DNA of 62,568 nucleotides from a virus. Taxonomy: Duplodnaviria > Caudoviricetes. Under the pieces are notes generated by a model. That model had not been told where the DNA came from. It was given only the letters and a program-made list of their open reading frames with translations, and ran no database searches. Shown here in pieces: positions 1-45,653 of the stretch (positions are counted from its first letter, which is position 1; each line of letters opens with the position of its first letter). A program made the position numbers and the translations under genes. The stretch is from positions 1 through 62,568 of the IMG/VR virus record IMGVR_UViG_3300011417_000010. One strand, 5' to 3'.

Positions 1-2970
1 GACGCCGGCCCGGTGAACATCTCGCACGGCACCATTCGCGGTGTCGCCTGCATGCCGAACAAGATCAAGGGCGTCCACTTCGACGAGGAGAAGGGCATCC
101 TGCACACGCAGAAGGGCTCGTTCCCGCTCTACAACCCTGACAAGGGGTTCCAGATGAAGGAGGACGGTGCGGGCACTCCGCACTACGAGAACGGCGTGCT
201 CCACGTTGCTAAGGGCACCGACACGTCTGGCTTCCACAACGGTCCAAGCCCTGGTTTCCGCGAGATCTACAACTCGAAGCCGATCGAGGATTTTCACTCG
301 GGCAAGGTCATGCCGAACTGGGTGCGCAATCACGAGCTGGCGAAGAGCGGGAAGACGCCCGACGAGGTCATCATGCACGCGGCGGTATTCTCGATGCTCT
401 CGCCGAACACTCCCGTGCGCCCGCACGAGCTGATGTACTCACACATGGTCGACACGTGGGAGGATCTCGGCATCGACCCGCGCGACGAGCACTTCAAGAA
501 GGCGAAGAAGCACTGGTTGAACAAGGACCAGCCGAAGGGCTACCCGCGCCTCGCGACCGACTACTTCAAGACCCACGAGGACGTCCACCTGGGCAACGCC
601 AGTGAGGGTAAGGGCCGCGAGAAGGGCGACCTGATGTCGTTCATGCTCGGCGAGAACAAGTTCGCGAACATCTCGAAGTACCACAAGCTCCACAGCACGC
701 TGACGGACCTGGTGCGCAAGCACGGTCACGACGCGCGCTCCGCGACGGCGGAGCTGATGAAGATGAAGCAGGAGCACGGGAAGTGGAAGACCCGTCGCCA
801 GGTCTTCAAGTCCAAGGTGAAGCAGCTCGCGGTCGAAAAGATGGGGCTCAAGAACCACTTCTCCGACTTCGTCGGCAAGGCCGTCGAGAAGGCTCGCGCC
901 GCAGGCCTGATGGGTAAGAAGGGTGAGTCCAAGACGGGCGACTCCGCTATCAAGAAGCGCTTCGAGGCCGAGGCCAAGAAGAAGGGTTTGAAGAACGACC
1001 TCGACGACTACGCCGAGAAGGCGACCCAGAGCAAAATCGGTGACTACAAGGGCACCGAGGTCCCGGGGCTCGCCCCAAAGACGGGGCGCTTCACGTTCAC
1101 GATGCTCGGTGGCGGCAACAGCTTCGTCCCCGACACGCACATCATCCGCCACCTGTTCGGCATGGACAATAAGAAGGACAGCGACACCCTCGCGTACATG
1201 AAGTCCGTGTTGTGGAACCCGAATAACCACCACGTCCTCGAAGGCATGGACAAGTGGTACGCGAAGAACCACCCGGCTGCGCAGCTGATGCAGAACCACG
1301 AGCAGTGGGGCAAGCACTTCCAGGACGACAAGGAGCAGGCGAACTTCCCCGCGTTCTGGCGCCACTGGTGCTCGATCGCTCAGGACGAGCGCAACCGCGG
1401 CATGCCGAACCAGTCGGCGAACGAGTTCTCGACCCATGAGCCGTTCTGGCTCGGCATCCAGAAGTTTGTCAAGAGCGAGGCTCCGGACGAGCGCATGGTC
1501 GCGAAGATGATCGCGCTGCACGACCGCTACCAGAAGGACTACGGCGAGATCCCGGCGCAGATGATGTTCTTCCAGCACATCCTTCCCCACCTGTGGGAGG
1601 CCGCGGAGCACCGCCAGAAGCACGACGACCTCGCGGACTTCGCGAAGTCGATTGCGCACATCCACACACTCGACATCTCGCTCCGCAAGAGCGCTGAGGA
1701 AGCCGCCGTATCCCTGTACAACGACGCGATGGTGCCTACTATTCACGATGTGCACTACCACGTCGACGGGAACGAGCACCGTGCAGGTAGGTTCGTTATC
1801 CACAACAACCGACTCAAGCACCTGGAGGACCACCGTGGCCTACTGGAGCACCTGTTGCCAGAGGGCCCGGTGACCCTGAAGACCATCTCGGCCATCCACG
1901 GTCTGAAGATGTCGCCACACCTGCGCGTCTCGGTCGTGCCCGTCGAGACCCCGAAGCAGGAGCCGGCCACTAGGTCCCCCGAGCAGAAGGTCGCCGATGC
2001 GCAGCCCGTGCGACCGCCGTCGGTGTTCGAGTACCACCGAGCCGGCCACGACCACCCGCACACATTGGAGGTCAAGGACGGGCACTATATGCTCGATGGT
2101 GAGCACTTGTCCCACCCAGAGGTCCAGGCGATTTTGGAGAACCACAAATCTGGTGCTGCAACTATCCGCTACAGGTCTGGCGGGAAGTCGCCGATGGAAC
2201 AGATTAGGAAAATGGAGGAAGCTTTCTCACAGTTTCTTCCGATGAGGAAGGCCGAGGGCGAGTTCACGACCGAGGAGATGGTGAACCACGCTCGTCGGAT
2301 GGAGTCCATGGGTCACGTTCCCAAGGGCTACTCGGACACGCTGAACAAGATGCTCCACGAGGACACCCTCGTACCTGGCGTTGGTAACAAGGCCGCGGCC
2401 GGCCACTTCCTGACGAAGCAGAAGCCGGGCGTGTACGTTTCGATGGACGGCAACGACTTCGGCAAGGTCAACAAGGCCTTCGGCCAGCACGTCGGTGACC
2501 AGGCGATCACCGCGATGGGCGGCGCGCTTCGCTCGGCGTCCGACGAGGCGACCCCGGGCGTGGGCAAGGTGTTCCGCAACGGTGGCGACGAGTTCGTCGC
2601 GCACTTCCCGTCGCACGAACACGCCGCGAAGTTCATGCGCTCGGTTCACCAGAAGCTGCAGGACGTCCCAGCCATCGGTGGCGCCCACAAGCTCAGTTTC
2701 TCGTTCGGCTTCGGTACCGACCTGCATCAGGCGAACCATGCTCTTCTCGCGGCCAAGCAGCAGAAGGTCCACCCGACCACCGGGCAGGCTCTCTACGGTG
2801 TCGGCCAGACGCCGAACATGGCGCATTCGCTGGTGCCCGGCCACGAGGGCCCGCTTCCCGTGCACGACACGGAGAGCGAGATGATGCACCAGACGATGAA
2901 GGCGCCCGCGAGTGCTACGCCGAAGCCGATTCCGGCCCCGCCTGCGGCTCCGAAGTCGGCTGCTGCCTAA
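1..2970 (+). CDS. Large multidomain protein (probably 5'-truncated): HhH-GPD DNA glycosylase/AP-lyase-like domain + C-terminal GGDEF nucleotide cyclase domain
   Basis: Frame is open from base 1. VPGLAPKTGRF..VPDTHIIRHLF matches the HhH motif with catalytic Lys/Asp. SMDGNDFGKVNKAFGQHVGD..FRNGGDEF is a canonical GGDEF signature. Several LxKS/A motifs lie between the domains. Confidence 0.75.
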   Translation, partial: DAGPVNISHGTIRGVACMPNKIKGVHFDEEKGILHTQKGSFPLYNPDKGFQMKEDGAGTPHYENGVLHVAKGTDTSGFHNGPSPGFREIYNSKPIEDFHSGKVMPNWVRNHELAKSGKTPDEVIMHAAVFSMLSPNTPVRPHELMYSHMVDTWEDLGIDPRDEHFKKAKKHWLNKDQPKGYPRLATDYFKTHEDVHLGNASEGKGREKGDLMSFMLGENKFANISKYHKLHSTLTDLVRKHGHDARSATAELMKMKQEHGKWKTRRQVFKSKVKQLAVEKMGLKNHFSDFVGKAVEKARAAGLMGKKGESKTGDSAIKKRFEAEAKKKGLKNDLDDYAEKATQSKIGDYKGTEVPGLAPKTGRFTFTMLGGGNSFVPDTHIIRHLFGMDNKKDSDTLAYMKSVLWNPNNHHVLEGMDKWYAKNHPAAQLMQNHEQWGKHFQDDKEQANFPAFWRHWCSIAQDERNRGMPNQSANEFSTHEPFWLGIQKFVKSEAPDERMVAKMIALHDRYQKDYGEIPAQMMFFQHILPHLWEAAEHRQKHDDLADFAKSIAHIHTLDISLRKSAEEAAVSLYNDAMVPTIHDVHYHVDGNEHRAGRFVIHNNRLKHLEDHRGLLEHLLPEGPVTLKTISAIHGLKMSPHLRVSVVPVETPKQEPATRSPEQKVADAQPVRPPSVFEYHRAGHDHPHTLEVKDGHYMLDGEHLSHPEVQAILENHKSGAATIRYRSGGKSPMEQIRKMEEAFSQFLPMRKAEGEFTTEEMVNHARRMESMGHVPKGYSDTLNKMLHEDTLVPGVGNKAAAGHFLTKQKPGVYVSMDGNDFGKVNKAFGQHVGDQAITAMGGALRSASDEATPGVGKVFRNGGDEFVAHFPSHEHAAKFMRSVHQKLQDVPAIGGAHKLSFSFGFGTDLHQANHALLAAKQQKVHPTTGQALYGVGQTPNMAHSLVPGHEGPLPVHDTESEMMHQTMKAPASATPKPIPAPPAAPKSAAA

Positions 2971-10379: not shown

Positions 10380-13274
10380 ATGCCGCAGGTAGCCCTCATC
10401 ACGGCCTACAATGGCAAGGGCCAGCTCCTCGTCGGCAAGCGAAACGACAATGAGCGGTACACCCTGCCGGGTGGCCACATCGAAAGCGGGGAGGACCCGT
10501 CCGCGGGCGCTCTCCGCGAGCTGTACGAGGAGACGGGTCTGCACGCGCAGAGCCTGTCCTTCCTGAGGCACTTCGTGACAAAGACCGGTGTCGAGCTTCA
10601 CTGCTTCAGTGCGTTCGTCACGGGCGAGCCGCACGGCAAGAACGACCCCGATCACGAGGTCAGCAAGTGGGAGTTCATCGACGTCGAGGAAGGTCTTCCG
10701 CCGAAGGTGTTCAACAACCTACACGGTCCCCAGGACGACGACAACCTCGTTACTCAGCTCTTCGACCTGCAGAAGGCAGAGGAGATGGGGCAGCGCGTGT
10801 GGCACTCGGACGGGAATGAGATCCACATCCCGTCGGAGATGCACCCGGACCGTCCTGCGTACGACGAGAACCACCTGAACGAGGTCCGCAAGACCTACAA
10901 GATGGACGTGCGACCGCTCAAGGTCGGGACCGAGCAGCTGACGACCACGCTGCCGTTGTCCAACCACGACCGTCACGACCTCTATCGCCGCATCTTTCGC
11001 GCGGGCGAGCACCTCCCGGCCATCGTCGTTGAGAAGACTGGCTCTGGGTATCGCGTCCTCGACGGGAACCACAAGGTCCACGCTGTTCGCTCCGAAGGTG
11101 GCGGCCAGATGGACGCCGTGGAGCTGATTCCTGACGAGATGCCACCAGAAATCCGCGAGGCGCACATGGCGAAGGCCGAGGACGAGGTCTACCGCCTACT
11201 CGACCACCCCAACGTCGCTGAGCGCACGATGGCGCTCAAGCTCGACTCGCTCCAACCGTCGCACCTTGACGCCGCTGCGCTCGACGCGGACCCGAAGGTG
11301 TACTCGGCCGCGATCGACCACGCCAAGTTCGGTCCGCTGCAGGGCCTACACCTCATGGAGGCGACGCAGGATAAGACCGGAGCGTTTCCCGCCAAGCAGA
11401 AGAATACGTTTCTCCAGCGTGGGGGCAGGGTGAAGCCCTACCACCTGACTGCGTACCTCAACTCCGCTCGGACTGCAGGTCACGACGAGTACGTGTGGGC
11501 TGTCGGGATGCTCACCTACCGTGGTACGCCTACGACCGACGCTATCTTGCGCAAGATCTACCTCGACAGCGGTCAGGTCGACTCAGCGTTGCGTCTCCAG
11601 GCCGTCGCCCACCCGAACGCCCCAGCCGACATCCTCGACCATGCCCTGGATTTGGGGTTCATGGTCCGCACGCCGGAGTCGTCCGAGTTCGCCAAGGGCG
11701 CGGCGGCGCACAAGAACGTGCTCAAGAGTTCGCTCGCTAGGATCGTCCACCGCGCAGCGGACCGCGGCGATGAGTACGAGGTCACTATCGCGCTCCATGC
11801 GCTGAGCAACAACACCGTCGGTGACGAGGTGGGTAGGTACCTTTTGACTCGCTCGATCGCGTCACCCACGTCGGCCGCCCCGCGTCTGCTCGGCGCGCTT
11901 CTGTCCGGTCCGTCCGGCACAAAGGAGCTGGCCGACGAAGCTCAGAAGCACCTTCAGCCGCAGGCCCTGCAGTACATCGTGGGCTCGCCGCACGCGGGCA
12001 CTGATGTGGTCGGAGCTGTGGTCGCCTCGGGCGACCCCGCCATGCTATCCAAGGCCATGGAGAGCCCGCACTTCGGCAACGAGCACCTCGCGCTGCTGGT
12101 GAAGCACGCCGAGGAGACGTTCGCGAAGTCGATCGACGAGAACGCCAAGGCGCTCGCGCAACACCCGGTGGTCTCGACGCAGCTCGGGTTCGACGAGACG
12201 AACAATCCTGCGTTTAAGGCGGCTAAGTTCTTGGCGATGGGTCAGGACCTCACCGACGAAGACCAGCGCCAGGCTCTCTACCACGAGGACGGCGACATGG
12301 AGCGAGCTGCGCTCCTAGCGTACGGTCTGCCCTGCACCGACGACAACCTGGCTGCGCTCCGCGCCGTCATGGACGTCCGCGACGTGAAGAAGAGCGCGCT
12401 GGACGGCTCCGTCCCCGTTGCGAACGCGGTCACCGCACACCCCGAGGGTAAGGACGTCGGTGACGCGATCGAGCGCGCCGTCAAGGACAACTTCGTGTTC
12501 CCAGTCGCGCTCGGTGGGAAGCACTCAGTCGGGTCAATGCTCGCTTACGACGACGAGACGCACACAACCTGGCTGCTCAAGTCGGGTAGTGGTGGCGCTG
12601 GCGGAGCCGCGGGCTCGAAGCAGGACCCCTCCAACCCCAACGCACGCGAGGCTGCATTCTACTACGTCGCGAAGGAGTGGGGGATTGAGAAGTGGTTCCC
12701 GCGCGCGGAGCTGCTACTGCTCGACGGGCAGCCGTTCGCCGCTCTCGCCCTGCTCCCGCTCAACTACAAGACGCTCGACAAGCGTGAGCACGATGACCAC
12801 GGCATCTCTCGCCGGATTCTGCACCCGATGCTGCACGACGGGACGCTCCACCAATGGGCGGTGATCGACTACGTGCTCGGCAACCCGGACCGTCACGGTC
12901 AGAACGTGATGGTAAACCCGAAGCACGATGTGCGGCTGATTGACCACGGCTCCGCGTTCGCGGGTTATTTGTTCGACCCCGCGCACGACCAGAACTCGTT
13001 CGTGCCGTACTACCTGCGCGCGTGGCACCTCGAAGGCTCGTTCAACCAGCTGCCGGCCGACCAGAAGCTGAAGGGCCTCCCCCGCGTGCACGAGGAGGTC
13101 GCGGTCAAGCTCACGGCCTGGATCGACTCCATCAAGGCTGACAAGCTCACCGAGATCTGCAAGCGCTACGGTATCAACCCCGAGCCCACGCTCACCCGCC
13201 TGGGCAAGCTCCAGGTAGCCGTCGCCAGCGAGCCAGCCGACCTGGCGATCAATAAACTTTGGGTCACGACCTAG
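10380..13274 (+). CDS. Multidomain protein: Nudix hydrolase + ParB-like nuclease + helical repeats + PI3/4-kinase/HipA-like kinase
   Basis: Nudix box GGHIESGEDPSAGALRELYEETG; ParB YRVLDGNHK; kinase DYVLGNPDRHGQN..LIDHG; domains separated by LQKAE, MAKAE, FAKS, VKKS. Confidence 0.8.
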   Translation: MPQVALITAYNGKGQLLVGKRNDNERYTLPGGHIESGEDPSAGALRELYEETGLHAQSLSFLRHFVTKTGVELHCFSAFVTGEPHGKNDPDHEVSKWEFIDVEEGLPPKVFNNLHGPQDDDNLVTQLFDLQKAEEMGQRVWHSDGNEIHIPSEMHPDRPAYDENHLNEVRKTYKMDVRPLKVGTEQLTTTLPLSNHDRHDLYRRIFRAGEHLPAIVVEKTGSGYRVLDGNHKVHAVRSEGGGQMDAVELIPDEMPPEIREAHMAKAEDEVYRLLDHPNVAERTMALKLDSLQPSHLDAAALDADPKVYSAAIDHAKFGPLQGLHLMEATQDKTGAFPAKQKNTFLQRGGRVKPYHLTAYLNSARTAGHDEYVWAVGMLTYRGTPTTDAILRKIYLDSGQVDSALRLQAVAHPNAPADILDHALDLGFMVRTPESSEFAKGAAAHKNVLKSSLARIVHRAADRGDEYEVTIALHALSNNTVGDEVGRYLLTRSIASPTSAAPRLLGALLSGPSGTKELADEAQKHLQPQALQYIVGSPHAGTDVVGAVVASGDPAMLSKAMESPHFGNEHLALLVKHAEETFAKSIDENAKALAQHPVVSTQLGFDETNNPAFKAAKFLAMGQDLTDEDQRQALYHEDGDMERAALLAYGLPCTDDNLAALRAVMDVRDVKKSALDGSVPVANAVTAHPEGKDVGDAIERAVKDNFVFPVALGGKHSVGSMLAYDDETHTTWLLKSGSGGAGGAAGSKQDPSNPNAREAAFYYVAKEWGIEKWFPRAELLLLDGQPFAALALLPLNYKTLDKREHDDHGISRRILHPMLHDGTLHQWAVIDYVLGNPDRHGQNVMVNPKHDVRLIDHGSAFAGYLFDPAHDQNSFVPYYLRAWHLEGSFNQLPADQKLKGLPRVHEEVAVKLTAWIDSIKADKLTEICKRYGINPEPTLTRLGKLQVAVASEPADLAINKLWVTT

Positions 13275-33798: not shown

Positions 33799-34125
33799 GT
33801 GGGCAAGACCAAGATCAAACAGCTCGTCCAGAAGAAGTGGAACCTCGGACATCTTCGATCGCAGAAGTTCGCAGGCCTTATTTTCTGCACCACGCTGTGC
33901 TTCTGCGCTGGGTTGTTTCAGTACAGTGAGCCGACGACCTCCGTGGTCATCATGGGCATTGTCGGATGCTTCACTGCGTTCGTTGGCGGTCGTGCGTGGA
34001 GCGACAACGCGGCCATGAAGTTTGGTGGATTTCCTCCCAACACGACTGACGACGAGGTCAGTGTCGTGCGCCGTAGGCCGAAGAAGAACGACGAAGAAAA
34101 GGACAAAGAACGTGAAGTCGATTAA
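33799..34125 (+). CDS. Putative holin
   Basis: LRSQKF followed by two TM segments and a highly charged C-terminus. Confidence 0.5.
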   Translation: MGKTKIKQLVQKKWNLGHLRSQKFAGLIFCTTLCFCAGLFQYSEPTTSVVIMGIVGCFTAFVGGRAWSDNAAMKFGGFPPNTTDDEVSVVRRRPKKNDEEKDKEREVD

Positions 34126-34549
34126 GCGAATCCTCAAGACCCAGCCCCCGACGATCTACAAGAGGGTCGACGAGGTGGAGGTTGGCGGTCCCATCGGCCG
34201 CTGGTTCCACAAGCACAACTGGGGCGCGATGACGATCCCGTTCCCGTTCTTCGTGCTCATCATGTACTGGAGTTCGGAGGACGCGCCCGACGGCGAGGTT
34301 CACCCGCTGGTGCGCGTGCACGAGTTCACTCACGTCGCGCAGGACCAGCTCGACCGCTTCTGGTTCGTGTCGTGGGCGAAGTACCTCTGGTGGCTGTTCT
34401 CGGGCGTGCCGTGGAAGAAGGTCTTCAAGCGCGAGATGGGCATCATCGATGGGTTCATGGACTCGTACTACCACGTGCCGTACGAGCAAGAGGCCTACGC
34501 CGTCGAGCAAGAGGCCGAAGAGAACGGCTTGCCCGCCTGGGCGAAGTAG
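34112..34549 (+). CDS. HExxH metallopeptidase-like protein (DUF4157-like)
   Basis: VHEFTHVAQ..PYEQEAY. Confidence 0.6.
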   Translation: MKSIKRILKTQPPTIYKRVDEVEVGGPIGRWFHKHNWGAMTIPFPFFVLIMYWSSEDAPDGEVHPLVRVHEFTHVAQDQLDRFWFVSWAKYLWWLFSGVPWKKVFKREMGIIDGFMDSYYHVPYEQEAYAVEQEAEENGLPAWAK

Positions 34550-34567
34550 AGTAGAATCCCGGTCGTC

Positions 34568-34741
34568 ATGGCCGTTGACCGCTACAAGAACAAGATCAAG
34601 CACGCTGCGTGGACGTGGCGCGAGGAGAAGGTCTCCCGCTACCACCTCCCCGCGCGTCGCAAGGATCGTGCGTCGGGGCGCAACGACAAGCGCTCCGCTC
34701 GTCAGGAAGACCGTCGCGACATTTTCGAGGAGTCAGAATGA
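34568..34741 (+). CDS. Small basic protein (57 aa)
   Basis: ATG 34568; ATGA overlap with the next ORF. Confidence 0.45.
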   Translation: MAVDRYKNKIKHAAWTWREEKVSRYHLPARRKDRASGRNDKRSARQEDRRDIFEESE

Positions 34742-34881
34742 ACCCGTTTCGCTACATCAAGGACCACGCTCCGAACCCAAAGAACTCCGATGGAGGAATC
34801 CTCGCTGTCGTTGGGTACTACGTCGCTATCCTGGCAGTGGCCGGTGGCGTCATCGGTCTGGTCTGCAAGATCCTGCTCTAG
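34738..34881 (+). CDS. Small membrane protein
   Basis: GAGGAG RBS; single TM segment. Confidence 0.5.
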   Translation: MNPFRYIKDHAPNPKNSDGGILAVVGYYVAILAVAGGVIGLVCKILL

Positions 34882-34969
34882 AAAATTTGACAGGGCGCGG
34901 ACACCCTTGGGTCGGGGCGCTTCAATCATGGGTTCAATCAACCTGGGCCTGTCCATTCACTTGACGTAG

Positions 34970-34990
34970 AGATTCGCTAGAGGTAATCTT
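34970..34990 (+). promoter_or_regulatory. Tandem promoter motifs for tRNA operon 1
   Basis: AGATTCGCTA-N5-AATCTT. Confidence 0.65.
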
Positions 34991-35002
34991 AGGATCACCC
35001 CG

Positions 35003-35050
35003 ATGTTCCGTCAGTTGCTATCCCCTTTGTCTCTGTTGCTGCTCGCGTAA
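35003..35050 (+). CDS. Putative leader peptide MFRQLLSPLSLLLLA (7 Leu) of the tRNA-Leu operon
   Basis: AGGA 8 nt upstream of ATG; lies between the promoter motifs and three tRNA-Leu genes; stop codon sits in the CTCGC-GTAA-GCGAG hairpin. Confidence 0.65.
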   Translation: MFRQLLSPLSLLLLA

Positions 35051-35093
35051 GCGAGTACAAGCACACCCGCGCGCGCAGCGCGCACAGAAATAG

Positions 35094-35177
35094 GCGATCG
35101 TGGCGGAATTGGTAGACGCGCGGGCTTGAGGTGCCCGTGGGCTAACGCCCGTGCAGGTTCGAGTCCTGTCGATCGCA
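35094..35177 (+). tRNA. tRNA-Leu(GAG)
   Basis: GCGATCG/CGATCGC acceptor; CGGGC-TTGAGGT-GCCCG; long variable arm; TTCGAGT loop. Confidence 0.92.
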
Positions 35178-35182
35178 CCCTT

Positions 35183-35260
35183 GCCACTGTAGCCCAACCG
35201 GAAGGAGGCGCTCCGCTCAGAACGGAGACAGTGTGGGTTCGAATCCCATCAGTGGTACCA
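35183..35260 (+). tRNA. tRNA-Leu(CAG), short variable loop
   Basis: CTCCG-CTCAGAA-CGGAG; TTCGAAT; encoded CCA. Confidence 0.88.
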
Positions 35261-35261
35261 T

Positions 35262-35335
35262 GCGCTCGTAGCTCAACTGGAAGAGGCAGAGGCTTCAAAC
35301 CCCTCGTGTTGTCGGTTCGAATCCGACCGGGCGTA
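35262..35335 (+). tRNA. tRNA-Leu(CAA), short variable loop
   Basis: GAGGC-TTCAAAC-CCCTC (C31:C39 mismatch); Leu-type D arm; A discriminator. An alternative register would give TCA. Confidence 0.7.
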
Positions 35336-35352
35336 CTTGACAAGCTGCAGAG

Positions 35353-35373
35353 AGATTTGCTAGACATAATCTT
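35353..35373 (+). promoter_or_regulatory. Tandem promoter motifs for tRNA operon 2
   Basis: AGATTTGCTA-N5-AATCTT, same spacing as operon 1. Confidence 0.65.
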
Positions 35374-35385
35374 GAGAGAAGTTCC

Positions 35386-35517
35386 ATGAACGCTGAGATC
35401 ACATCGTACGTCGGCAGCACGGGTCAACGAACCCGACGCCAGACGTATATTCAGCGTCATACCCAGCGCCCACGACAGGGTGCGTTCGACCGCTTCGATC
35501 CCACCAGGGATCAATAA
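35386..35517 (+). CDS. Putative 43-aa leader peptide of tRNA operon 2 (MNAEITSYVGSTGQRTRRQTYIQRHTQRPRQGAFDRFDPTRDQ)
   Basis: Lies between the promoter motifs and the first tRNA; composition matches the downstream tRNA set; embedded in a long hairpin. Confidence 0.65.
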   Translation: MNAEITSYVGSTGQRTRRQTYIQRHTQRPRQGAFDRFDPTRDQ

Positions 35518-35521
35518 GCGC

Positions 35522-35544
35522 AAAAAGCCGGGACGCCCGGCAAA
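35522..35544 (-). terminator. GC hairpin with T-tract on the minus strand
   Basis: AAAAA-GCCGGG-ACG-CCCGGC-AAAG on the plus strand. Confidence 0.45.
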
Positions 35545-35552
35545 GATCGAAC

Positions 35553-35626
35553 GGCACCCTAGCTCAGTCTGGTAGAGCGGCGCCCTGAAAAGGCGCGCGT
35601 CCCTGGTTCAAATCCAGGGGGTGTCA
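35553..35626 (+). tRNA. tRNA-Phe(GAA)
   Basis: GCGCC-CTGAAAA-GGCGC; canonical cloverleaf. Confidence 0.92.
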
Positions 35627-35634
35627 CTGCTCTT

Positions 35635-35709
35635 CCCGCTGTAAGCTTCCGGTGAGGCTGCTCCACTGTCTATGGAGTGAGACGAGTTCAACTCTCGTCA
35701 GCGGGGCCA
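35635..35709 (+). tRNA. tRNA-Asp(GTC)
   Basis: CTCCA-CTGTCTA-TGGAG; G discriminator; CCA. Confidence 0.88.
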
Positions 35710-35734
35710 GACATCCTCACCAACGCGTCGATCG

Positions 35735-35805
35735 CTGGGCGTAGGATATTGGGTATCTCCCGGTCCCGGAAGCCGGTTAAGCAGGTTCGATTCCTGCCGC
35801 CCAGA
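35735..35805 (+). tRNA. tRNA-Pro(CGG)
   Basis: CTGGGCG/CGCCCAG acceptor; loop CCCGGAA (C33). Confidence 0.8.
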
Positions 35806-35810
35806 CCCAT

Positions 35811-35884
35811 GGTGGCCGTAGTGTACTGGCTGTGCACGTCGTGCTGTGAACACGGAAGTTCCGGATCGTAACCGGACAGTCACC
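35811..35884 (+). tRNA. tRNA-His(GTG)
   Basis: G-1 and C discriminator; loop CTGTGAA; atypical T-loop ATCGTAA. Confidence 0.85.
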
Positions 35885-35919
35885 CTTCTTTGAAAATTAA
35901 ATAGCTGACCATGTTCTTT

Positions 35920-36003
35920 GGGGACGTATACCGGTAGAGGGCCGGGGCAGATTGTAAACCTGTCGTCTCGGCTCCGTAGGCGCAACTCCTACCGGCCCCA
36001 CCA
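35920..36003 (+). tRNA. tRNA-Tyr(GTA)
   Basis: Loop TTGTAAA; long variable region; ACCA end; atypical D and T loops. Confidence 0.75.
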
Positions 36004-36005
36004 AT

Positions 36006-36076
36006 GCTGGTGTCGTTCAATGGCAGGACACTCCCTTCGTACGGTAGAAATGAGGGTTCGATTCCTTCTTCCAGCT
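36006..36076 (+). tRNA. tRNA-Thr(CGT)
   Basis: Loop TTCGTAC; GCTGG/CCAGC acceptor with mismatches. Confidence 0.75.
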
Positions 36077-36083
36077 CAGCAGT

Positions 36084-36157
36084 GCCGGCGTCGTTCAACG
36101 GCAGGACAGCTGCCCAGTAAGCAGCCTATGAGGGTTCAATTCCTTCCCCCGGCTCCA
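36084..36157 (+). tRNA. tRNA-Thr(AGT)
   Basis: GCTGC-CCAGTAA-GCAGC; CCA; paralogous to the preceding Thr tRNA. Confidence 0.82.
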
Positions 36158-36163
36158 AAATAT

Positions 36164-36237
36164 TGCCTTGTCGTCTAGCGGCAGGATGCCTGACTCTGAC
36201 CCAGGTGACGATCGTTCGAATCGATCCGAGGCAACCA
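36164..36237 (+). tRNA. tRNA-Gln(CTG)
   Basis: Loop CTCTGAC; U1 acceptor; CCA. Confidence 0.88.
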
Positions 36238-36238
36238 C

Positions 36239-36309
36239 ACGCGAATAGTTCAGTGGCAGAACTGCCGCCCGATTAGCGGCTGACGAGGGTTCGATTCCCT
36301 ACTCGCGTA
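36239..36309 (+). tRNA. tRNA-Ile(GAT)
   Basis: GCCGC-CCGATTA-GCGGC (C33, U37); A discriminator. Confidence 0.75.
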
Positions 36310-36314
36310 CTCAT

Positions 36315-36389
36315 CTCGTCGTGGTGGAATGGACATCACGTAGCCCTGCGAAGGCTGAATTCCAGGTTCGACTCCTGGCGGCGAGACCA
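36315..36389 (+). tRNA. tRNA-Arg(GCG)
   Basis: TAGCC-CTGCGAA-GGCTG; CCA. Confidence 0.88.
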
Positions 36390-36390
36390 A

Positions 36391-36462
36391 CCCCTGATAG
36401 TGGAATGGACACCACGCTCCGCTTCGAACGGTGAAGTCCGGGTTCAACTCCTGGTCGGGGGA
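36391..36462 (+). tRNA. tRNA-Arg(TCG)
   Basis: CTCCG-CTTCGAA-CGGTG; D arm nearly identical to the preceding Arg tRNA. Confidence 0.85.
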
Positions 36463-36467
36463 CAAGA

Positions 36468-36539
36468 TCCCCTGTCGTCTAACGGCAGGATGTCGGCCTT
36501 TGACTCCCGACGATGCTCGTTCGAATCGAGCCGGGGGAA
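36468..36539 (+). tRNA. tRNA-Gln(TTG) with one extra base in the anticodon arm
   Basis: TCGGC-CTTTGAC-TCCCGA; D and T arms match the Gln(CTG) paralog. Confidence 0.75.
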
Positions 36540-36565
36540 CATTTTGAAAGGAGCGGCAGCGCGGG

Positions 36566-37093
36566 TTAGGACCCCGAGACCTCAGTGTCTCTGGTGGGGG
36601 TCGCCCGCGCTGCCGCGGGAGCGCCTACTGATTCGAGCGCGTACTCGGTACAGTCGCGGCATGGCTTGTCGCCATCGGCTTGGATGCAGTCGGCGAACTC
36701 GTGCGGCGTGCTCACCCACACGAACGGTCGCCAGGGCCTCGGGCCCTGCGGCTTGCGCACCCCGTCAGCCCCCGCCCTCCACCTCCCGGCACGCTTGTGC
36801 TGCTTGTCGGGGCTCTTCGGGTTGGGCACGCGCACAAACCTCTGGAACACGGTCGGCTCCTTCGATCCTGGCTTCACCGAGGTTTCCGCGGCCTGGTAGA
36901 AGCTCAGGACGTACTTCTCGCGATCCCCGTCGCCGGCCACGCCGCGGTTCAGCTGGCCCTTGTGCCAGGTGTTCCTGCGCTCCGCGCACGGCCCGCAGTA
37001 GGCCACGCCCCATCGGCGGTCGAAGTCGCCCGAAGCGGGGTGGTAGGGACCCCCACAACAGAAGCATCGCGTCGGTGGATCCGTGGTGTCCAT
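36566..37093 (-). CDS. Hypothetical protein with zinc finger
   Basis: CFCC..CGPC; sigma70 promoter upstream. Confidence 0.55.
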   Translation of the reverse strand: MDTTDPPTRCFCCGGPYHPASGDFDRRWGVAYCGPCAERRNTWHKGQLNRGVAGDGDREKYVLSFYQAAETSVKPGSKEPTVFQRFVRVPNPKSPDKQHKRAGRWRAGADGVRKPQGPRPWRPFVWVSTPHEFADCIQADGDKPCRDCTEYALESVGAPAAARATPTRDTEVSGS

Positions 37094-37102
37094 CAGACTC
37101 AC

Positions 37103-37142
37103 AATCTACTTGAGTAGACCCGATCTGTCAATAGATTCGCTA
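37103..37142. promoter_or_regulatory. Divergent promoters: sigma70-type (minus) and AGATTCGCTA (plus)
   Basis: Minus strand TTGACA-17-TAGATT (37131-37103); plus-strand motif at 37133-37142. Confidence 0.6.
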
Positions 37143-37150
37143 GGAAATAC

Positions 37151-37882
37151 ATGGGAGGCCCCTTGAAATCACTCCTTGCCGCGCTCGTGTTTTTGTTCAC
37201 CCTCTCGACTGCGCACGCGGCGGGGCTCACCCAGCCTCCCCCGTTCAACCCCGTCATCGTCCCCATGCTCTCGCCTCCCGTCGCGCCCTTCACCGCGCGG
37301 GCCGCGCCGGCAGGGGTGACGCCAGGCACCGTTCGCGCATTCCGTCTTTCAGCTCCGATCGACGCTGGCGCCGTCAGGGCGGTCACCGAGTTCTTGGAGA
37401 GGGCTCGCCAGGACCACACCGAGATTGTCATGATCGAGATGACGACCCCGGGCGGTAGCTACGGCGCTGGCCACGACATCTCGCGTCAGATCGAGAACTC
37501 TCCCGTCACGGTCGTATGCGTCGCCGACAGCATGGTAGCGTCCATGGGCCTCTACATCCTCCAGTCGTGTGACCGCAGGGTCATCACCACGCGTGGGATC
37601 TTGATGGCTCACAGCGCGCTCACGAGCACGCCCGAGGCGATGGAGAACGAGCACGACCTGCAGAACAAGGTCAACCTGCTGAAGGCGCTCAACCGAGCGT
37701 ACGGCAGTCACGTCGTCCTCCGCGCGAATATCACCATCGACCAGTACCTCGCCCGCATCGCGGACGGCAAGGAGTGGTGGATCAACGCCGACGAGGCCCT
37801 GAAGGTCGGTCTGGCGGACACCATCTGGAAGGGCACGCCCAGCGCCCTACTGAAGGCGCTCAAAGACGGCCAGAGGCCCTAG
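37151..37882 (+). CDS. ClpP/crotonase-fold serine protease with signal peptide
   Basis: TPGGS, VASMG (Ser), LMAH (His), EWWINADEALKVGLAD; signal peptide ending AHA. Confidence 0.75.
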   Translation: MGGPLKSLLAALVFLFTLSTAHAAGLTQPPPFNPVIVPMLSPPVAPFTARAAPAGVTPGTVRAFRLSAPIDAGAVRAVTEFLERARQDHTEIVMIEMTTPGGSYGAGHDISRQIENSPVTVVCVADSMVASMGLYILQSCDRRVITTRGILMAHSALTSTPEAMENEHDLQNKVNLLKALNRAYGSHVVLRANITIDQYLARIADGKEWWINADEALKVGLADTIWKGTPSALLKALKDGQRP

Positions 37883-45194: not shown

Positions 45195-45600
45195 GGGCCT
45201 GAACCGGTATCGACTGGTGAACAAGGAACTGAGACGCGTGCCGAGGTTGGTCATCAGGCCTCGTAAAAAGAAGACCAAAACACAAAAGCGAAGAACGATG
45301 AGTTCGACGTCCCGTTCGACCTGGTGGTCGCGGCGGGTTTCGGTGGTGGTCCCAGCGCTCGCGCTTGGAACTAACCATTGAAGATCGGCGAGTAGAGGTC
45401 CCAGGTACCTCGTCGATTCAAAACTAGGGAACGTCTAGTCGGAGCGAATCTGGCTTGTTCTTGGACGTAAACCAAGTGGTGGAGGGCGCCGGAAACGGAT
45501 CGTGGAGGTTCTCGACCTCCCGCCCCCGAAATCGAGAAACGCACGTATAAAGCTTGGTTACGAAGTCGCTAGGACCGCGGTTCGACTCCGCGCAGGTCCA
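45195..45600 (+). ncRNA. ssrA: tmRNA
   Basis: 5' GGGCCTG..GGTATCGAC pairs with 3' GGAC-CGCGG-TTCGACT-CCGCG-CAGGTCC-A, giving the G3:U70 Ala identity pair; internal tag frame 45288-45374 starts GCG after an A-rich stretch. Confidence 0.88.
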
Positions 45601-45653
45601 CTTAGTTTTACTGTAGCACTTAGATTCGCTAGATAATAACTTAAGGAGTACGC

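What the first reader, a model, noticed from the sequence alone, without database searches (positions are those of the whole stretch)
34970..36539. tRNA operons headed by leader peptides whose amino acids match the tRNAs downstream: candidate ribosome-sensed switch for phage tRNA supply
Seen: both tRNA clusters share one layout: tandem promoter motifs (AGATTYGCTA-N5-AATCTT), then a short structured ORF, then tRNAs. Operon 1 has a Leu-rich peptide before three tRNA-Leu genes. Operon 2 has a peptide built almost entirely from the nine amino acids of its 12 tRNAs, with no Leu. The match occurs twice with non-overlapping amino-acid sets. Known: leader peptides in trpL, hisL, leuL and thrL sense charged-tRNA shortage by ribosome stalling, and host defences often destroy tRNAs. 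Inference: the phage senses depletion of specific host tRNAs and raises or processes the matching replacement tRNAs on demand. I know of no described leader-peptide control of phage tRNA arrays. No plus-strand U-tract terminator is visible, so the output may be Rho-dependent or act through RNA processing.
Basis: partly seen in the sequence, partly recalled or inferred. Interest (0 to 1): 0.93.

Follow-up and report, generated by a model that had tools for sequence, protein, structure and literature searches.

The report
Amino-acid-matched leader ORFs heading phage tRNA operons
In this soil phage and its close relatives, each block of tRNA genes is preceded by a tiny conserved reading frame built mostly from the amino acids that those tRNAs carry, which suggests that the phage uses the ribosome to gauge tRNA supply and adjust its own tRNA output.

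Summary
The window is a fragment of an Mx1-like myovirus. Both tRNA operons start with the same promoter box, a short ATG ORF and conserved hairpins.

ORF1 has 7 Leu among 14 residues after the initiator and precedes three tRNA-Leu genes. ORF2 has 32 of 42 residues from the nine amino acids of its 12 tRNAs.

I found 16 such leaders in 9 related phage records. They comprise four operon types with different tRNA sets, two of which are not in the window. Fourteen of the 16 are enriched for their own set (p <= 2.5e-3). Each leader tested is the most extreme short ORF in its genome. The match is frame-specific, and ORF2 shows a coding substitution pattern.

In the second operon type, ORF codons pair with the 5' acceptor strand of the first tRNA in 6 of 6 records.

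Four results count against a classical attenuator:
- there is no intrinsic terminator;
- there is no codon-level match to the anticodons;
- two long Leu-operon leaders are not Leu-rich;
- more distant relatives lack such leaders.

Most likely this is a translation-sensed switch on tRNA maturation or transcription. Its direction and output are inferred. Seven literature searches found no description of it.

The parts
34961..34989 (+). Promoter region of tRNA operon 1. It has a -35-like hexamer (34961-34966), the general phage motif AGATTCGCTAG (34970-34980) and a -10-like TAATCT box (34984-34989, 17 nt after the -35-like hexamer).
   Evidence: Read. An AATCT box lies 7-24 nt before the ATG in 16 of 16 leaders. 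The consensus scan did not score it as a sigma-70 promoter.
35003..35050 (+). Leader ORF 1: 15 codons plus stop, with 7 Leu.
   Evidence: An ATG ORF ending in the same Leu-rich module and the same stop codon is kept in 7 of 7 records, with lengths of 42, 45, 48, 135 and 156 nt.
35042..35055 (+). Hairpin 1 of leader 1: a 5-bp stem with a 4-nt loop that holds the ORF1 stop codon (35048-35050).
   Evidence: Read. The extended 7-pair stem is invariant in 7 of 7 records.
35069..35083 (+). Hairpin 2 of leader 1: a GC stem about 10 nt before the first tRNA, with no U tract after it.
   Evidence: 5 pairs, one of them with compensatory change in 2 records. One search finds no plus-strand terminator.
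35094..35336 (+). tRNA operon 1: tRNA-Leu(GAG), tRNA-Leu(CAG) and a 75-nt tRNA homologous to Leu(CAA) of relatives.
35353..35372 (+). Promoter region of tRNA operon 2: AGATTTGCTAG (35353-35363) and the TAATCT box (35367-35372).
35386..35517 (+). Leader ORF 2: 43 codons plus stop. After the initiator, 32 of 42 residues come from the nine amino acids served by the operon.
   Evidence: The ORF is kept in 6 of 6 records (132-144 nt). Synonymous to nonsynonymous differences are 98:53 in frame, against 45:111 and 21:135 out of frame.
35466..35471 (+). Possible alternative partner (region 1) for the 5' strand of the long-range helix. It would form a 6-bp hairpin with 35478-35483.
   Evidence: Read from the alignment. 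The bases are nearly invariant, so there is no covariation. This part is inferred.
35477..35489 (+). 5' strand of the long-range helix P1, inside ORF2 (codons 31-35).
35497..35512 (+). Hairpin B inside the end of ORF2 (6-bp stem). The stop codon (35515-35517) follows 2 nt later.
   Evidence: The consensus fold scores only 3 of its pairs (kept in 4, 6 and 5 of 6 records). In my reading of the alignment, the stem arms are kept in all six records while the loop length and the peptide there vary.
35527..35541 (+). Hairpin C between ORF2 and tRNA-Phe, with no U tract on the plus strand.
   Evidence: 6 pairs, two with compensatory changes. One search scores it only as a minus-strand terminator look-alike. 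The A tract that causes this is not conserved in relatives.
35547..35560 (+). 3' strand of helix P1: the last 6 nt of the spacer plus nucleotides 1-8 of tRNA-Phe (its 5' acceptor strand).
35553..36540 (+). tRNA operon 2, with 12 tRNAs: Phe, Asp-like (35634-35707), Pro, His, Tyr-like (35920-36003), Thr, Thr, Gln, Ile, Arg, Arg and Gln(UUG)-like (36468-36540).

Best explanation
The short ORFs are translated leader ORFs that act in cis as ribosome-read gauges for the tRNA operons they head. Each leader is rich in codons for the amino acids whose tRNAs follow it. The time a ribosome spends on the leader therefore depends on the supply of those aminoacyl-tRNAs.

The ribosome's position decides how the leader RNA folds. 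In operon 2, a strand inside the ORF (35477-35489) can pair with the spacer and the first 8 nt of tRNA-Phe (35547-35560). That pairing excludes the tRNA's own acceptor stem, and so its folding and RNase P cleavage. A ribosome held on the dense run of cognate codons just upstream would cover this strand and let the tRNA fold.

My committed reading is control on demand: scarcity of these aminoacyl-tRNAs leads to stalling, and stalling leads to more matured phage tRNA. It would work through co-transcriptional RNA folding and processing, not through an intrinsic terminator.

- **Shown:** the anatomy, its conservation, the frame-specific amino-acid match in four operon types, the coding-type substitution pattern of ORF2, and the operon-2 helix.
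- **Inferred:** translation itself, stalling, the effect on processing, the direction of control, and any effect beyond the first tRNA.

I put about 0.7 on 'a translated cis-sensor coupled to tRNA output of some kind'. I put about 0.4 on this particular output and direction.
For: **Conservation.** I found 16 leaders in 9 records: the window, L037, L038, L039, L041, L042, G004, G021 and G022. All have an ATG ORF that ends 5-43 nt before the first tRNA. All have an AATCT box 7-24 nt before the ATG.

**Match to the operon's own amino-acid set.**
- 14 of 16 leaders reach binomial p <= 2.5e-3, and the 4x4 table of leader types against tRNA sets is strongly diagonal.
- All 7 leaders tested are the single top-scoring short ORF of their size class in their genome. 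The classes hold 68 to 552 ORFs.

**Out-of-sample operon types.**
- G004 operon 3: 31/38, with 0 of 2000 dinucleotide shuffles reaching it.
- G021 and G022 operon 4: 23/32 and 25/34, with 2 and 0 of 2000 shuffles reaching them.

**Frame specificity**.
- Operon 1: 7/14 in frame, against 2/13 and 0/13 in the other two frames.
- Operon 3: 31/38, against 9/34 and 11/36.
- Operon 4: 23/32, against 13/31 and 13/30.

**Coding signature of ORF2.** Pairwise single-base codon differences are 98 synonymous to 53 nonsynonymous in frame. In the shifted frames they are 45:111 and 21:135. ORFs stay open across five different lengths in operon 1 and four in operon 2.

**Co-variation.**
- L041 adds a tRNA-Cys to the Leu operon. 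Its leader has 3 Cys in 51 residues, while the homologous L038 leader has none (p = 0.014).
- The operon-4 leader resembles the operon-1 leader at its start. It is enriched in Ser, Pro, Phe and Tyr where those tRNAs join the Leu tRNAs.

**Helix P1 in operon 2.**
- It is predicted in 6 of 6 records, with 2 compensatory pairs.
- Its duplex energy is z -3.2 to -6.1 against shuffled ORFs, and 0-5 of 500 shuffles reach it.
- The cognate first tRNA ranks 2nd of 13 and 1st of 31 as pairing partner.

**Negative controls** show the match is not a general property of ORFs next to phage tRNAs: Mx1, G008, G011, G012 and Streptomyces phage CeilingFan, where 0 of 15 upstream small CDS are enriched.
Against: - **No direct evidence of translation.** There is no clear Shine-Dalgarno sequence, and the predicted 5' UTRs are only a few to about 17 nt. 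Leader GC3 is 0.61 for ORF2, against about 0.85 in genes.
- **No intrinsic terminator**.
- **No codon-level match.** Codon choice fits the operons' anticodons no better than genome usage would (P = 0.36-0.99 in 7 of 7 leaders tested). For example, the operon-4 leader of G021 has 23/32 residues in the set but only 11/32 codons readable by the encoded anticodons. This is hard to square with a gauge for specific isoacceptors.
- **Two leaders do not fit.** The long operon-1 leaders are not Leu-enriched overall (L038 5/43, L041 6/50). Only their last 8 codons are.
- **Operon 2 owes part of its match to base composition.** Shuffles average about 0.60, and 16-67 of 2000 reach the observed value. The other frames score 21-29 of about 42.
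- **The ORF-to-tRNA helix is significant only in operon 2.** Operons 1 and 3 do no better than shuffles (z +0.6 to -1.5). The own-tRNA rank is 4-16 there.
- **Limited reach.** Sequestering the acceptor strand would directly affect only the first of up to 12 tRNAs.
- **The direction is open.** By strict analogy with the trp attenuator, a ribosome stalled over the upstream alternative partner (35466-35471) would favour the sequestering helix, which is the opposite direction.
- **The pairs are not phylogenetically independent.**
Confidence: 0.4

Rival explanations
1. The same translated sensor works in the opposite direction, as a stringent-like brake. When the matching amino acids are not charged, the ribosome stalls before it opens the leader structure. 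The sequestering helix persists and the phage makes less of tRNAs it could not charge anyway. Smooth translation of the leader licenses tRNA maturation.
For: - The match is at the level of amino acids, not anticodons. That suits sensing of amino-acid charging better than sensing of isoacceptor loss.
- A passing or terminating ribosome must unwind helix P1 and the hairpins at the stop codon.
- By analogy with the trp attenuator (recalled), stalling over the upstream alternative partner frees the middle strand to pair downstream.
Against: - In operons 1 and 4, the cognate codons themselves lie on or next to the strand predicted to pair near the tRNA. A stalled ribosome would mask that strand rather than expose it.
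- There are no data on direction.
Confidence: 0.15
2. Rho-dependent attenuation. The naked leader RNA loads Rho, which stops transcription early in the tRNA array. A ribosome that lingers on the leader hides the loading site, and transcription continues.
For: - There is no intrinsic terminator.
- The first 45 nt have more C than G in 15 of 16 leaders, and overall C/G is above 1 in 14 of 16.
- Leader peptides that act through Rho are known, for example tnaC, mgtL and speFL (recalled, not looked up).
Against: - The C/G bias is modest (0.91-1.78).
- Leaders are short (82-197 nt from the ATG to the tRNA) and largely structured.
- In operon 4 the stop codon is only 5-8 nt from the tRNA.
- tRNAs fold quickly and make poor tracks for Rho.
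- This model does not explain the operon-2 helix with the tRNA acceptor strand.
Confidence: 0.15
3. The leaders are untranslated 5' processing or stability elements of the tRNA precursors: hairpins that guide RNase P, E or III, or protect the released leader. On this reading the open frames and their composition are by-products of RNA-level constraints.
For: - The hairpins are conserved and some covary.
- After the conserved Asp-Pro of ORF2, the hairpin stays while the peptide changes.
- Leader GC3 looks non-coding.
- There is no clear ribosome-binding site.
- Part of the operon-2 match comes from base composition.
Against: - The amino-acid match is frame-specific in operons 1, 3 and 4.
- The synonymous excess appears only in frame 0 of ORF2.
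- The ATG and an in-frame stop are kept in 16 of 16 leaders despite length changes.
- Four different compositions follow four tRNA sets. RNA structure alone does not predict this.
Confidence: 0.1
4. The ORFs encode small peptides with a job of their own that are merely co-transcribed with the tRNAs. Their composition resembles the tRNA sets for another reason, for example because they are best translated once those tRNAs are supplied.
For: - ORF2 has a conserved C-terminal peptide motif under apparent purifying selection.
- Small ORFs are common in phage tRNA regions.
Against: - Peptides of 13-15 residues made half of Leu, or of low-complexity composition, are unlikely to fold into proteins.
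- Replacements between the G021 and G022 leaders stay within the tRNA set rather than keeping a sequence.
- Small CDS next to tRNAs in another phage show no such match (0 of 15).
Confidence: 0.08

Closest known systems
Ribosome-mediated transcription attenuation by leader peptides (trpL, hisL, leuL, thrL, pheL, and pheM of pheST); recalled textbook knowledge, plus the listing and abstract of PMC3082878 on pheL seen
   Same: - A very short ORF at the head of the transcription unit is rich in codons for the amino acid(s) that the downstream genes serve. Runs of four Leu or four Thr codons occur in some leaders.
- The ORF overlaps strands of alternative RNA helices, shown here for operon 2.
   Different: - The regulated genes are tRNAs, not biosynthetic enzymes or synthetases.
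- One leader reports on up to nine amino acids at once.
- There is no hairpin-plus-U-tract terminator. In operon 2, the helix that competes with the leader is the acceptor stem of the first tRNA.
- The system is encoded by a phage.
Leader peptides that act through Rho or without a canonical terminator: tnaC, mgtL and speFL (recalled), and the polycysteine leaderless short ORFs of mycobacteria (bioRxiv 10.1101/834739, listing and start of abstract seen)
   Same: - A short ORF with little or no 5' UTR sits at the start of a polycistronic transcript.
- Its codon content sets the expression of what follows, without a classical attenuator terminator.
   Different: - Those systems control protein-coding operons and each senses a single amino acid or ligand.
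- Here neither Rho dependence nor any response has been tested, and the downstream genes are tRNAs.
T-box riboswitches
   Same: A cis-acting leader couples the charging state of a tRNA to the expression of genes of the translation apparatus.
   Different: - A T-box binds the tRNA directly through one specifier codon and needs no ribosome.
- No T-box or any other Rfam family apart from tRNA matched 34000-37500. The one other row is a chance-level antisense match far below its gathering score.
Regulated tRNA arrays and phage tRNA clusters: the cryptic tRNA operon of Anabaena induced under translational stress (PMC8421152, listing and abstract start, passages by term search), and the tRNA regions of phage Mx1 and Streptomyces phage CeilingFan
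   Same: - Long arrays of tRNA genes are expressed as operons.
- In the cyanobacterial case, expression responds to trouble in translation.
- Small ORFs lie interspersed in phage tRNA regions.
   Different: - The words 'leader' and 'attenuat' do not occur in PMC8421152.
- In Mx1, G008, G011 and CeilingFan, ORFs next to tRNAs show no amino-acid match.

Membership tests
Leader-peptide (ribosome-mediated) transcription attenuator, trp/his/leu/thr type | A short ORF at the 5' end of the same transcription unit, directly before the regulated genes. | tested here: met
   The ATG ORFs have 13-51 codons and end 5-43 nt before the first tRNA in 16 of 16 leaders. Each sits behind a shared AATCT box. Co-transcription is inferred from the layout.
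Leader-peptide (ribosome-mediated) transcription attenuator, trp/his/leu/thr type | The leader is enriched in codons for the amino acid(s) to which the regulated genes relate. | tested here: met
   14 of 16 leaders are enriched for their own tRNA set at p <= 2.5e-3. The enrichment is frame-specific. Each tested leader tops its genome's short ORFs. It is not met at the level of codon against anticodon.
Leader-peptide (ribosome-mediated) transcription attenuator, trp/his/leu/thr type | Mutually exclusive RNA helices, one strand of which lies in or next to the ORF. | tested here: inconclusive
   In operon 2, the helix between ORF codons 31-36 and the spacer plus tRNA 5' strand appears in 6 of 6 records. 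It has 2 compensatory pairs and z -3.2 to -6.1. In operons 1 and 3 it is not distinguishable from shuffles. In operon 4 it is only suggestive.
Leader-peptide (ribosome-mediated) transcription attenuator, trp/his/leu/thr type | An intrinsic terminator (GC-rich hairpin followed by a U tract) between the leader ORF and the regulated genes. | tested here: not met
   There is no plus-strand terminator-like site in 34700-36800. In all relatives read, the hairpins before the tRNAs are followed by A- and C-rich spacers.
Leader-peptide (ribosome-mediated) transcription attenuator, trp/his/leu/thr type | Expression responds to the supply of the cognate charged tRNA. | not testable with these tools
   This needs infection or reporter experiments.
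Rho-dependent leader-peptide attenuator (tnaC, mgtL, speFL type) | A C-rich, G-poor, unstructured Rho loading site that the ribosome can mask. | tested here: inconclusive
   C/G from the ATG to the tRNA is 0.91-1.78. The leaders are short and mostly predicted to be paired.
Rho-dependent leader-peptide attenuator (tnaC, mgtL, speFL type) | Termination depends on Rho. | not testable with these tools
T-box riboswitch | A specifier loop plus the conserved T-box sequence, as recognised by the Rfam model. | tested here: not met
   The Rfam scan of 34000-37500 at E <= 1 returned 12 tRNA matches and one chance-level antisense match (25.5 bits against a gathering score of 65.7). No T-box was found.
Phage-encoded tRNA gene array | Clustered tRNA genes on one strand of a phage genome. 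| tested here: met
   13 ARAGORN calls and 12 Rfam tRNA matches lie in 35094-36540. The contig carries a myovirus capsid and sheath, and its capsid protein is 56% identical to that of phage Mx1.

The most novel reading that the evidence does not exclude
This could be a new kind of attenuator in which the tRNA itself is the switch. Phage tRNA operons would carry 'amino-acid barcode' leader ORFs. The dwell time of the ribosome on them would gate co-transcriptional folding of the first tRNA, because a strand inside the ORF competes with the tRNA's own acceptor stem. That stem would take the place that the terminator holds in the trp attenuator.

The phage would then top up exactly the families of tRNA whose charged forms run short during infection. 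The shortage could come from codon-usage mismatch, host shut-off or tRNA-cleaving defence systems.
Probability: 0.3. Interest if true: 0.95.

Novelty: new variant of a known kind. Interest (0 to 1): 0.87.

Why it matters
Phages often carry tRNA genes, and current debate asks why: codon-usage matching, replacement of degraded host tRNAs, or escape from anticodon nucleases. How phages regulate those tRNAs is almost unknown.

If the ribosome reads a leader ORF whose composition mirrors the operon's tRNA set, the phage has a built-in feedback on its own translation supply. That would extend the leader-peptide principle in three ways:
- from amino-acid biosynthesis to tRNA genes;
- from one amino acid to up to nine at once;
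- from terminator hairpins to the folding of a tRNA.

It would also make the question 'what are phage tRNAs for?' directly testable. The leaders state which shortages the phage cares about.

The rule is simple enough to search for in all phage and bacterial tRNA arrays: a short ORF, with a composition that matches the downstream tRNAs, directly before the first tRNA.

Tried and rejected
**Searches for close relatives**
- GenBank phages: megablast found no match. The distant mode found only tRNA-level hits.
- IMG/VR scan with the neighbouring ClpP-like protein: 0 relatives.
- IMG/VR scan with the HExxH protein: one 98% identical contig, L002, which ends before the leader.

**Chance or unrelated hits, dropped**
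- The promoter-pattern scan gave L003-L005, low-GC contigs without tRNAs.
- L040 holds an integrase next to a host-like tRNA-Leu at a contig end.
- L150, from the genome-contig scan, is a chance hit inside a gene with no tRNA.
- The last IMG/VR scan, with an operon-4 leader piece, found only G021 and G022 again.

**Relatives without matching leaders**
- Mx1: 37 ARAGORN tRNAs, fragmented, with no ATG ORF of 9 or more codons before its Leu pair.
- G008 and G011.
- G012: the candidate turned out to be a 79-codon ORF scoring 53/78, and 79 of 587 short ORFs reach the first score.

**Records that were uninformative or not examined**
- G009: its arrays cover nearly all amino acids, so the test says nothing.
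- G007 (4 scattered tRNAs), G005 (0) and G006 (1) were not scanned for leaders.
- G010, G013-G020, G023 and G024 were not fetched.

**Other negative or weak results**
- The helix between ORF and tRNA as a general rule is rejected for operons 1 and 3.
- A codon-level match to the anticodons is rejected.
- A Rho loading site judged by composition is inconclusive.
- RNA evidence is weak. Three metatranscriptome runs hold parts of the stretch as Logan contigs. One 243-nt contig, with 1 mismatch, covers 35484-35726. It runs from inside ORF2 through tRNA-Phe into the next tRNA. Contigs show neither ends nor strand, and DNA carry-over is possible. I count this only as compatible with an unprocessed precursor. 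No contig was laid on ORF1 or on the first 90 nt of ORF2, and by the tool's own warning that absence proves nothing.

**Literature**
- Seven searches and a term search inside PMC8421152 found no leader-peptide control of tRNA operons.
- The library lacks most subscription journals, and supplements were not consulted.
- No search returned a paper on the Mx1 genome.

- I made no structure predictions, complex predictions or protein-atlas searches, because they do not bear on the question.

Full report
**What the window is**

The window is a whole IMG/VR virus record of 62,568 bases, estimated 38% complete, with 62.7% G+C. It encodes a major head protein and a tail sheath. The head protein is 56% identical to that of Myxococcus phage Mx1, its only near relative among 50,697 GenBank phage records. 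So this is a fragment of a roughly 170-kb Mx1-like myovirus. The host is not known.

**Check of the observation**

ARAGORN finds 13 tRNAs on the plus strand between 35094 and 36540, plus a tmRNA at 45195-45601. Rfam confirms 12 of the tRNAs.

The first cluster holds Leu(GAG), Leu(CAG) and a 75-nt tRNA. ARAGORN calls this third one SeC(tca) in the window, but its positional homologues in six relatives are called Leu(caa).

The second cluster has 10 ARAGORN calls. Two more genes are added by homology:
- An Asp-like gene at 35634-35707, 89% identical over 36 nt to the tRNA-Asp called in G004.
- A Tyr-like gene at 35920-36003, which aligns with the tRNA-Tyr called in L041, L042 and G004.

The last gene, which ARAGORN gives a four-base anticodon, matches Gln(UUG) of G004.

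Each cluster is preceded by AGATTYGCTAG, then 4 bases, then TAATCT(T), then an ATG ORF.
- ORF1 (35003-35050) has 7 Leu in 15 codons.
- ORF2 (35386-35517) has no Leu. After the initiator, 32 of its 42 residues come from the nine amino acids.

The scan finds no plus-strand terminator.

Two corrections to the description:
- AGATTYGCTAG is a general motif of this phage. It has 11 sites with up to 1 mismatch, against 0.86 expected. Most lie in front of protein genes, several with the ATG only 9 nt after the motif.
- 76% is not 'almost entirely'.

**Relatives**

The small HExxH protein just upstream of the array has 7 homologues at 47-99% identity. An alignment of them pulled two JGI contigs, L037 and L038, with the same gene order.

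Patterns taken from tRNA-Leu and from the two leaders pulled L039, L041, L042 and L043. L043 lies in G004, a complete 182,279-base genome with terminal repeats.

The capsid protein pulled 22 IMG/VR relatives at 53-79% identity. I fetched ten of these records whole.

**The leaders are conserved ORFs**

All seven copies of the Leu operon keep three features:
- an ATG ORF that ends in the same Leu-rich module;
- the same stop codon, which sits in the loop of an invariant hairpin;
- a second hairpin that shows compensatory change.

ORF length varies (42, 45, 48, 135 and 156 nt), yet the frame stays open.

All six copies of the second operon keep an ORF of 43-47 codons. Between these six, single-base codon differences are 98 synonymous to 53 nonsynonymous in the ORF's frame. 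In the two shifted frames they are 45:111 and 21:135. That is the pattern expected of a translated sequence. The pairs are not independent, because the six sequences are related.

**Does composition follow tRNA content?**

*Operon 3.* G004 has a third array: Asn, Val, Val, Ala, then Lys, Met, Gly, Gly, Lys, Trp, Glu. It sits behind the same box and a 39-codon ORF.
- 31 of 38 residues fall in those eight amino acids (p = 2.7e-6).
- Even against the first uninterrupted block alone (Asn, Val, Ala), the score is 18 of 38 (p = 4.2e-4).

*Operon 4.* G021 and G022 have an array of Tyr, Phe, Pro, one or three Leu, and two Ser.
- It sits behind a -35-like hexamer, a 17-nt spacer, TAATCT, 7 nt and the ATG.
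- 23 of 32 and 25 of 34 leader residues fall in those five amino acids, against a background of 26% (p = 7e-8 and 9e-9).

*All leaders together.*
- 14 of 16 leaders are enriched for their own set at p <= 2.5e-3. The table of four leader types against four sets is diagonal, apart from the expected overlap of the Leu set with the set of operon 4.
- In all seven cases tested, the leader is the single best-scoring ATG ORF of its size class in its own genome. The classes hold 68, 115, 172, 326, 318, 476 and 552 ORFs.

*Frame specificity*:
- operon 1: 7/14 in frame, against 2/13 and 0/13;
- operon 3: 31/38, against 9/34 and 11/36;
- operon 4: 23/32, against 13/31 and 13/30.

*Dinucleotide shuffles that reach the observed score*:
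- operon 1: 10 and 5 of 2000;
- operon 3: 0 of 2000;
- operon 4: 2 and 0 of 2000;
- operon 2: 16-67 of 2000. Part of its score therefore reflects its C- and A-rich base composition.

*Two pieces of co-variation.*
- L041 adds a tRNA-Cys after the three Leu tRNAs and has 3 Cys codons in its leader. The homologous long leader of L038 has none. The chance of this is p = 0.014 at a 1% background.
- The operon-4 leader begins like an operon-1 leader. It is rich in Ser, Pro, Phe and Tyr where those tRNAs join the Leu tRNAs.

**Controls and counter-examples**

ORFs next to tRNAs do not show such matches in the more distant, AT-richer relatives with fragmented arrays:
- Mx1;
- G008;
- G011;
- G012, whose candidate proved to be a 79-codon ORF with 53/78 in a 12-amino-acid set, which is not unusual.

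The unrelated Streptomyces phage CeilingFan shows none either: 0 of 15 small CDS before tRNAs are enriched. The feature therefore belongs to one GC-rich subclade with compact arrays.

Results against a simple rule:
- The long operon-1 leaders of L038 and L041 are Leu-rich only in their last eight codons (5/43 and 6/50 overall). Their first 14 codons resemble the start of the window's ORF2. This points to exchange of modules between leaders.
- Within the leaders, codon choice fits the operon's anticodons no better than the genome's ordinary usage would (P = 0.36-0.99).
- Leader GC3 is low (0.61 for ORF2, against about 0.85 in genes).

The match is therefore to amino acids, or to codon boxes, and not to isoacceptors.

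**RNA structure**

In the second operon, a strand inside the ORF (window 35477-35489, codons 31-35) pairs with the last bases of the spacer and the first 6-8 bases of tRNA-Phe.
- The pairing appears in 6 of 6 records.
- Two of its pairs show compensatory change.
- Its duplex energy lies 3.2-6.1 standard deviations beyond shuffled ORFs, and 0-5 of 500 shuffles reach it.
- This helix and the acceptor stem of tRNA-Phe cannot both form.
- A nearly invariant segment upstream (35466-35471) could pair with the same strand instead. That part is my reading of the alignment and has no covariation behind it.

Single-sequence folds drew a similar long-range helix in all the Leu-operon and operon-3 leaders as well. 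There it is no better than shuffles, and the cognate tRNA is not the preferred partner (rank 4-16).

In operon 4, the last codons pair with the first 8 bases of tRNA-Tyr, with the stop codon in the loop. The support is only suggestive (rank 2 of 9 and 3 of 13).

The C/G ratio of the leaders is 0.91-1.78. That is too weak to argue for or against a Rho loading site.

**How it most likely works**

A short ORF whose composition mirrors the downstream tRNAs, in the right frame, in four versions, is best explained by the ribosome reading it. The speed of that reading then reports the supply of the matching aminoacyl-tRNAs.

There is no terminator, so the output cannot be classical attenuation. The one well-supported structural link is the operon-2 helix that competes with the first tRNA's acceptor stem.

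I therefore favour control of co-transcriptional folding and RNase P processing. A ribosome held on the dense run of cognate codons just upstream would mask the competing strand. In the window's ORF2, 12 of the 14 codons before the helix are cognate. With the strand masked, the tRNA can fold. This gives more mature tRNA when supply is short.

Other readings stay open:
- the opposite direction, a brake when amino acids are not charged;
- a Rho-dependent variant;
- an untranslated processing element;
- free-standing micropeptides.

Weights for these are given under the rival explanations.

No tool result shows translation, stalling, the processing effect or the direction. A 243-nt metatranscriptome contig that spans 35484-35726 is compatible with an unprocessed precursor, but it proves nothing.

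**Comparison with what is known, and novelty**

The design works like a leader-peptide attenuator but fails two of its defining features: the intrinsic terminator, and biosynthetic or synthetase target genes. I do not file it as a member of that family. It is not a T-box.

Seven full-text searches and one in-paper term search found no description of leader-peptide control of tRNA operons in phages or bacteria. The library is incomplete, and I could not consult supplements.

The nearest precedents are:
- the leaderless polycysteine short ORFs of mycobacteria (bioRxiv 10.1101/834739, listing and abstract start only);
- the stress-induced tRNA array of Anabaena (PMC8421152, listing plus passages). 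That paper does not use the word 'leader' at all.

I rate this a new variant of a known kind. If the tRNA's own acceptor stem really serves as the switch helix, it would be a new kind.

Noticed in passing
window 6429, 13275, 20628(-), 31174, 37133, 39316(-), 42583, 45622, 61704: The motif AGATTCGCTAG (up to 1 mismatch) precedes many protein genes. In three cases the ATG follows exactly 9 nt after the motif, which suggests a phage-specific promoter that yields leaderless or near-leaderless mRNAs. Relatives use a variant with A in place of the second C. Mx1 has no exact copy.
   Followed up: partly
window 45195-45601 (+); G004 97012-97394 (-): The phage encodes a tmRNA with a long tag peptide, and the complete relative G004 has one too. 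A phage that carries its own ribosome-rescue RNA next to leader ORFs that may stall ribosomes deserves a look.
   Followed up: no
window 35262-35336 and 36468-36540: These tRNAs are unusual. One is a 75-nt tRNA that lacks the long variable arm but stands where relatives have Leu(CAA); ARAGORN reads it as SeC(tca) here. The other is read with a four-base anticodon and is homologous to Gln(UUG). His, the Asp-like gene and the Tyr-like gene are missed by Rfam even at E <= 1.
   Followed up: partly
window 34112-34549 (+): A small protein of about 145 residues with an invariant HExxH motif sits directly upstream of the tRNA array in the window, L037 and L038. It has 7 metagenomic homologues and no Pfam match.
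   Followed up: partly
L038 7429-7563 and L041 7445-7600, compared with window 35386-35427: The long Leu-operon leaders of L038 and L041 start with about 14 codons that resemble the start of the window's ORF2. This suggests recombination of leader modules between operons.
   Followed up: no
window 10380-13274 (+) and 37151-37882 (+): The first is a 964-residue protein with an N-terminal NUDIX domain and a weak C-terminal match to PI3/PI4 kinases. The second is a ClpP/NfeD-like protease with a signal-peptide-like start, just after the tRNA array.
   Followed up: no
G004 74955-74975 (L045 about 2456-2476, minus strand): A copy of the general promoter motif lies between tRNA-Lys(CUU) and tRNA-Met inside the third tRNA array, and the tRNA starts a few bases after it. 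An 88-codon ORF and an HNH endonuclease gene also interrupt that array.
   Followed up: no
Mx1 record OR576727.2 56915-58564; CeilingFan record PV165877.1 80564-82192: Both unrelated tRNA-rich phages carry a Ro/TROVE-like RNA-binding protein gene inside their tRNA regions.
   Followed up: no
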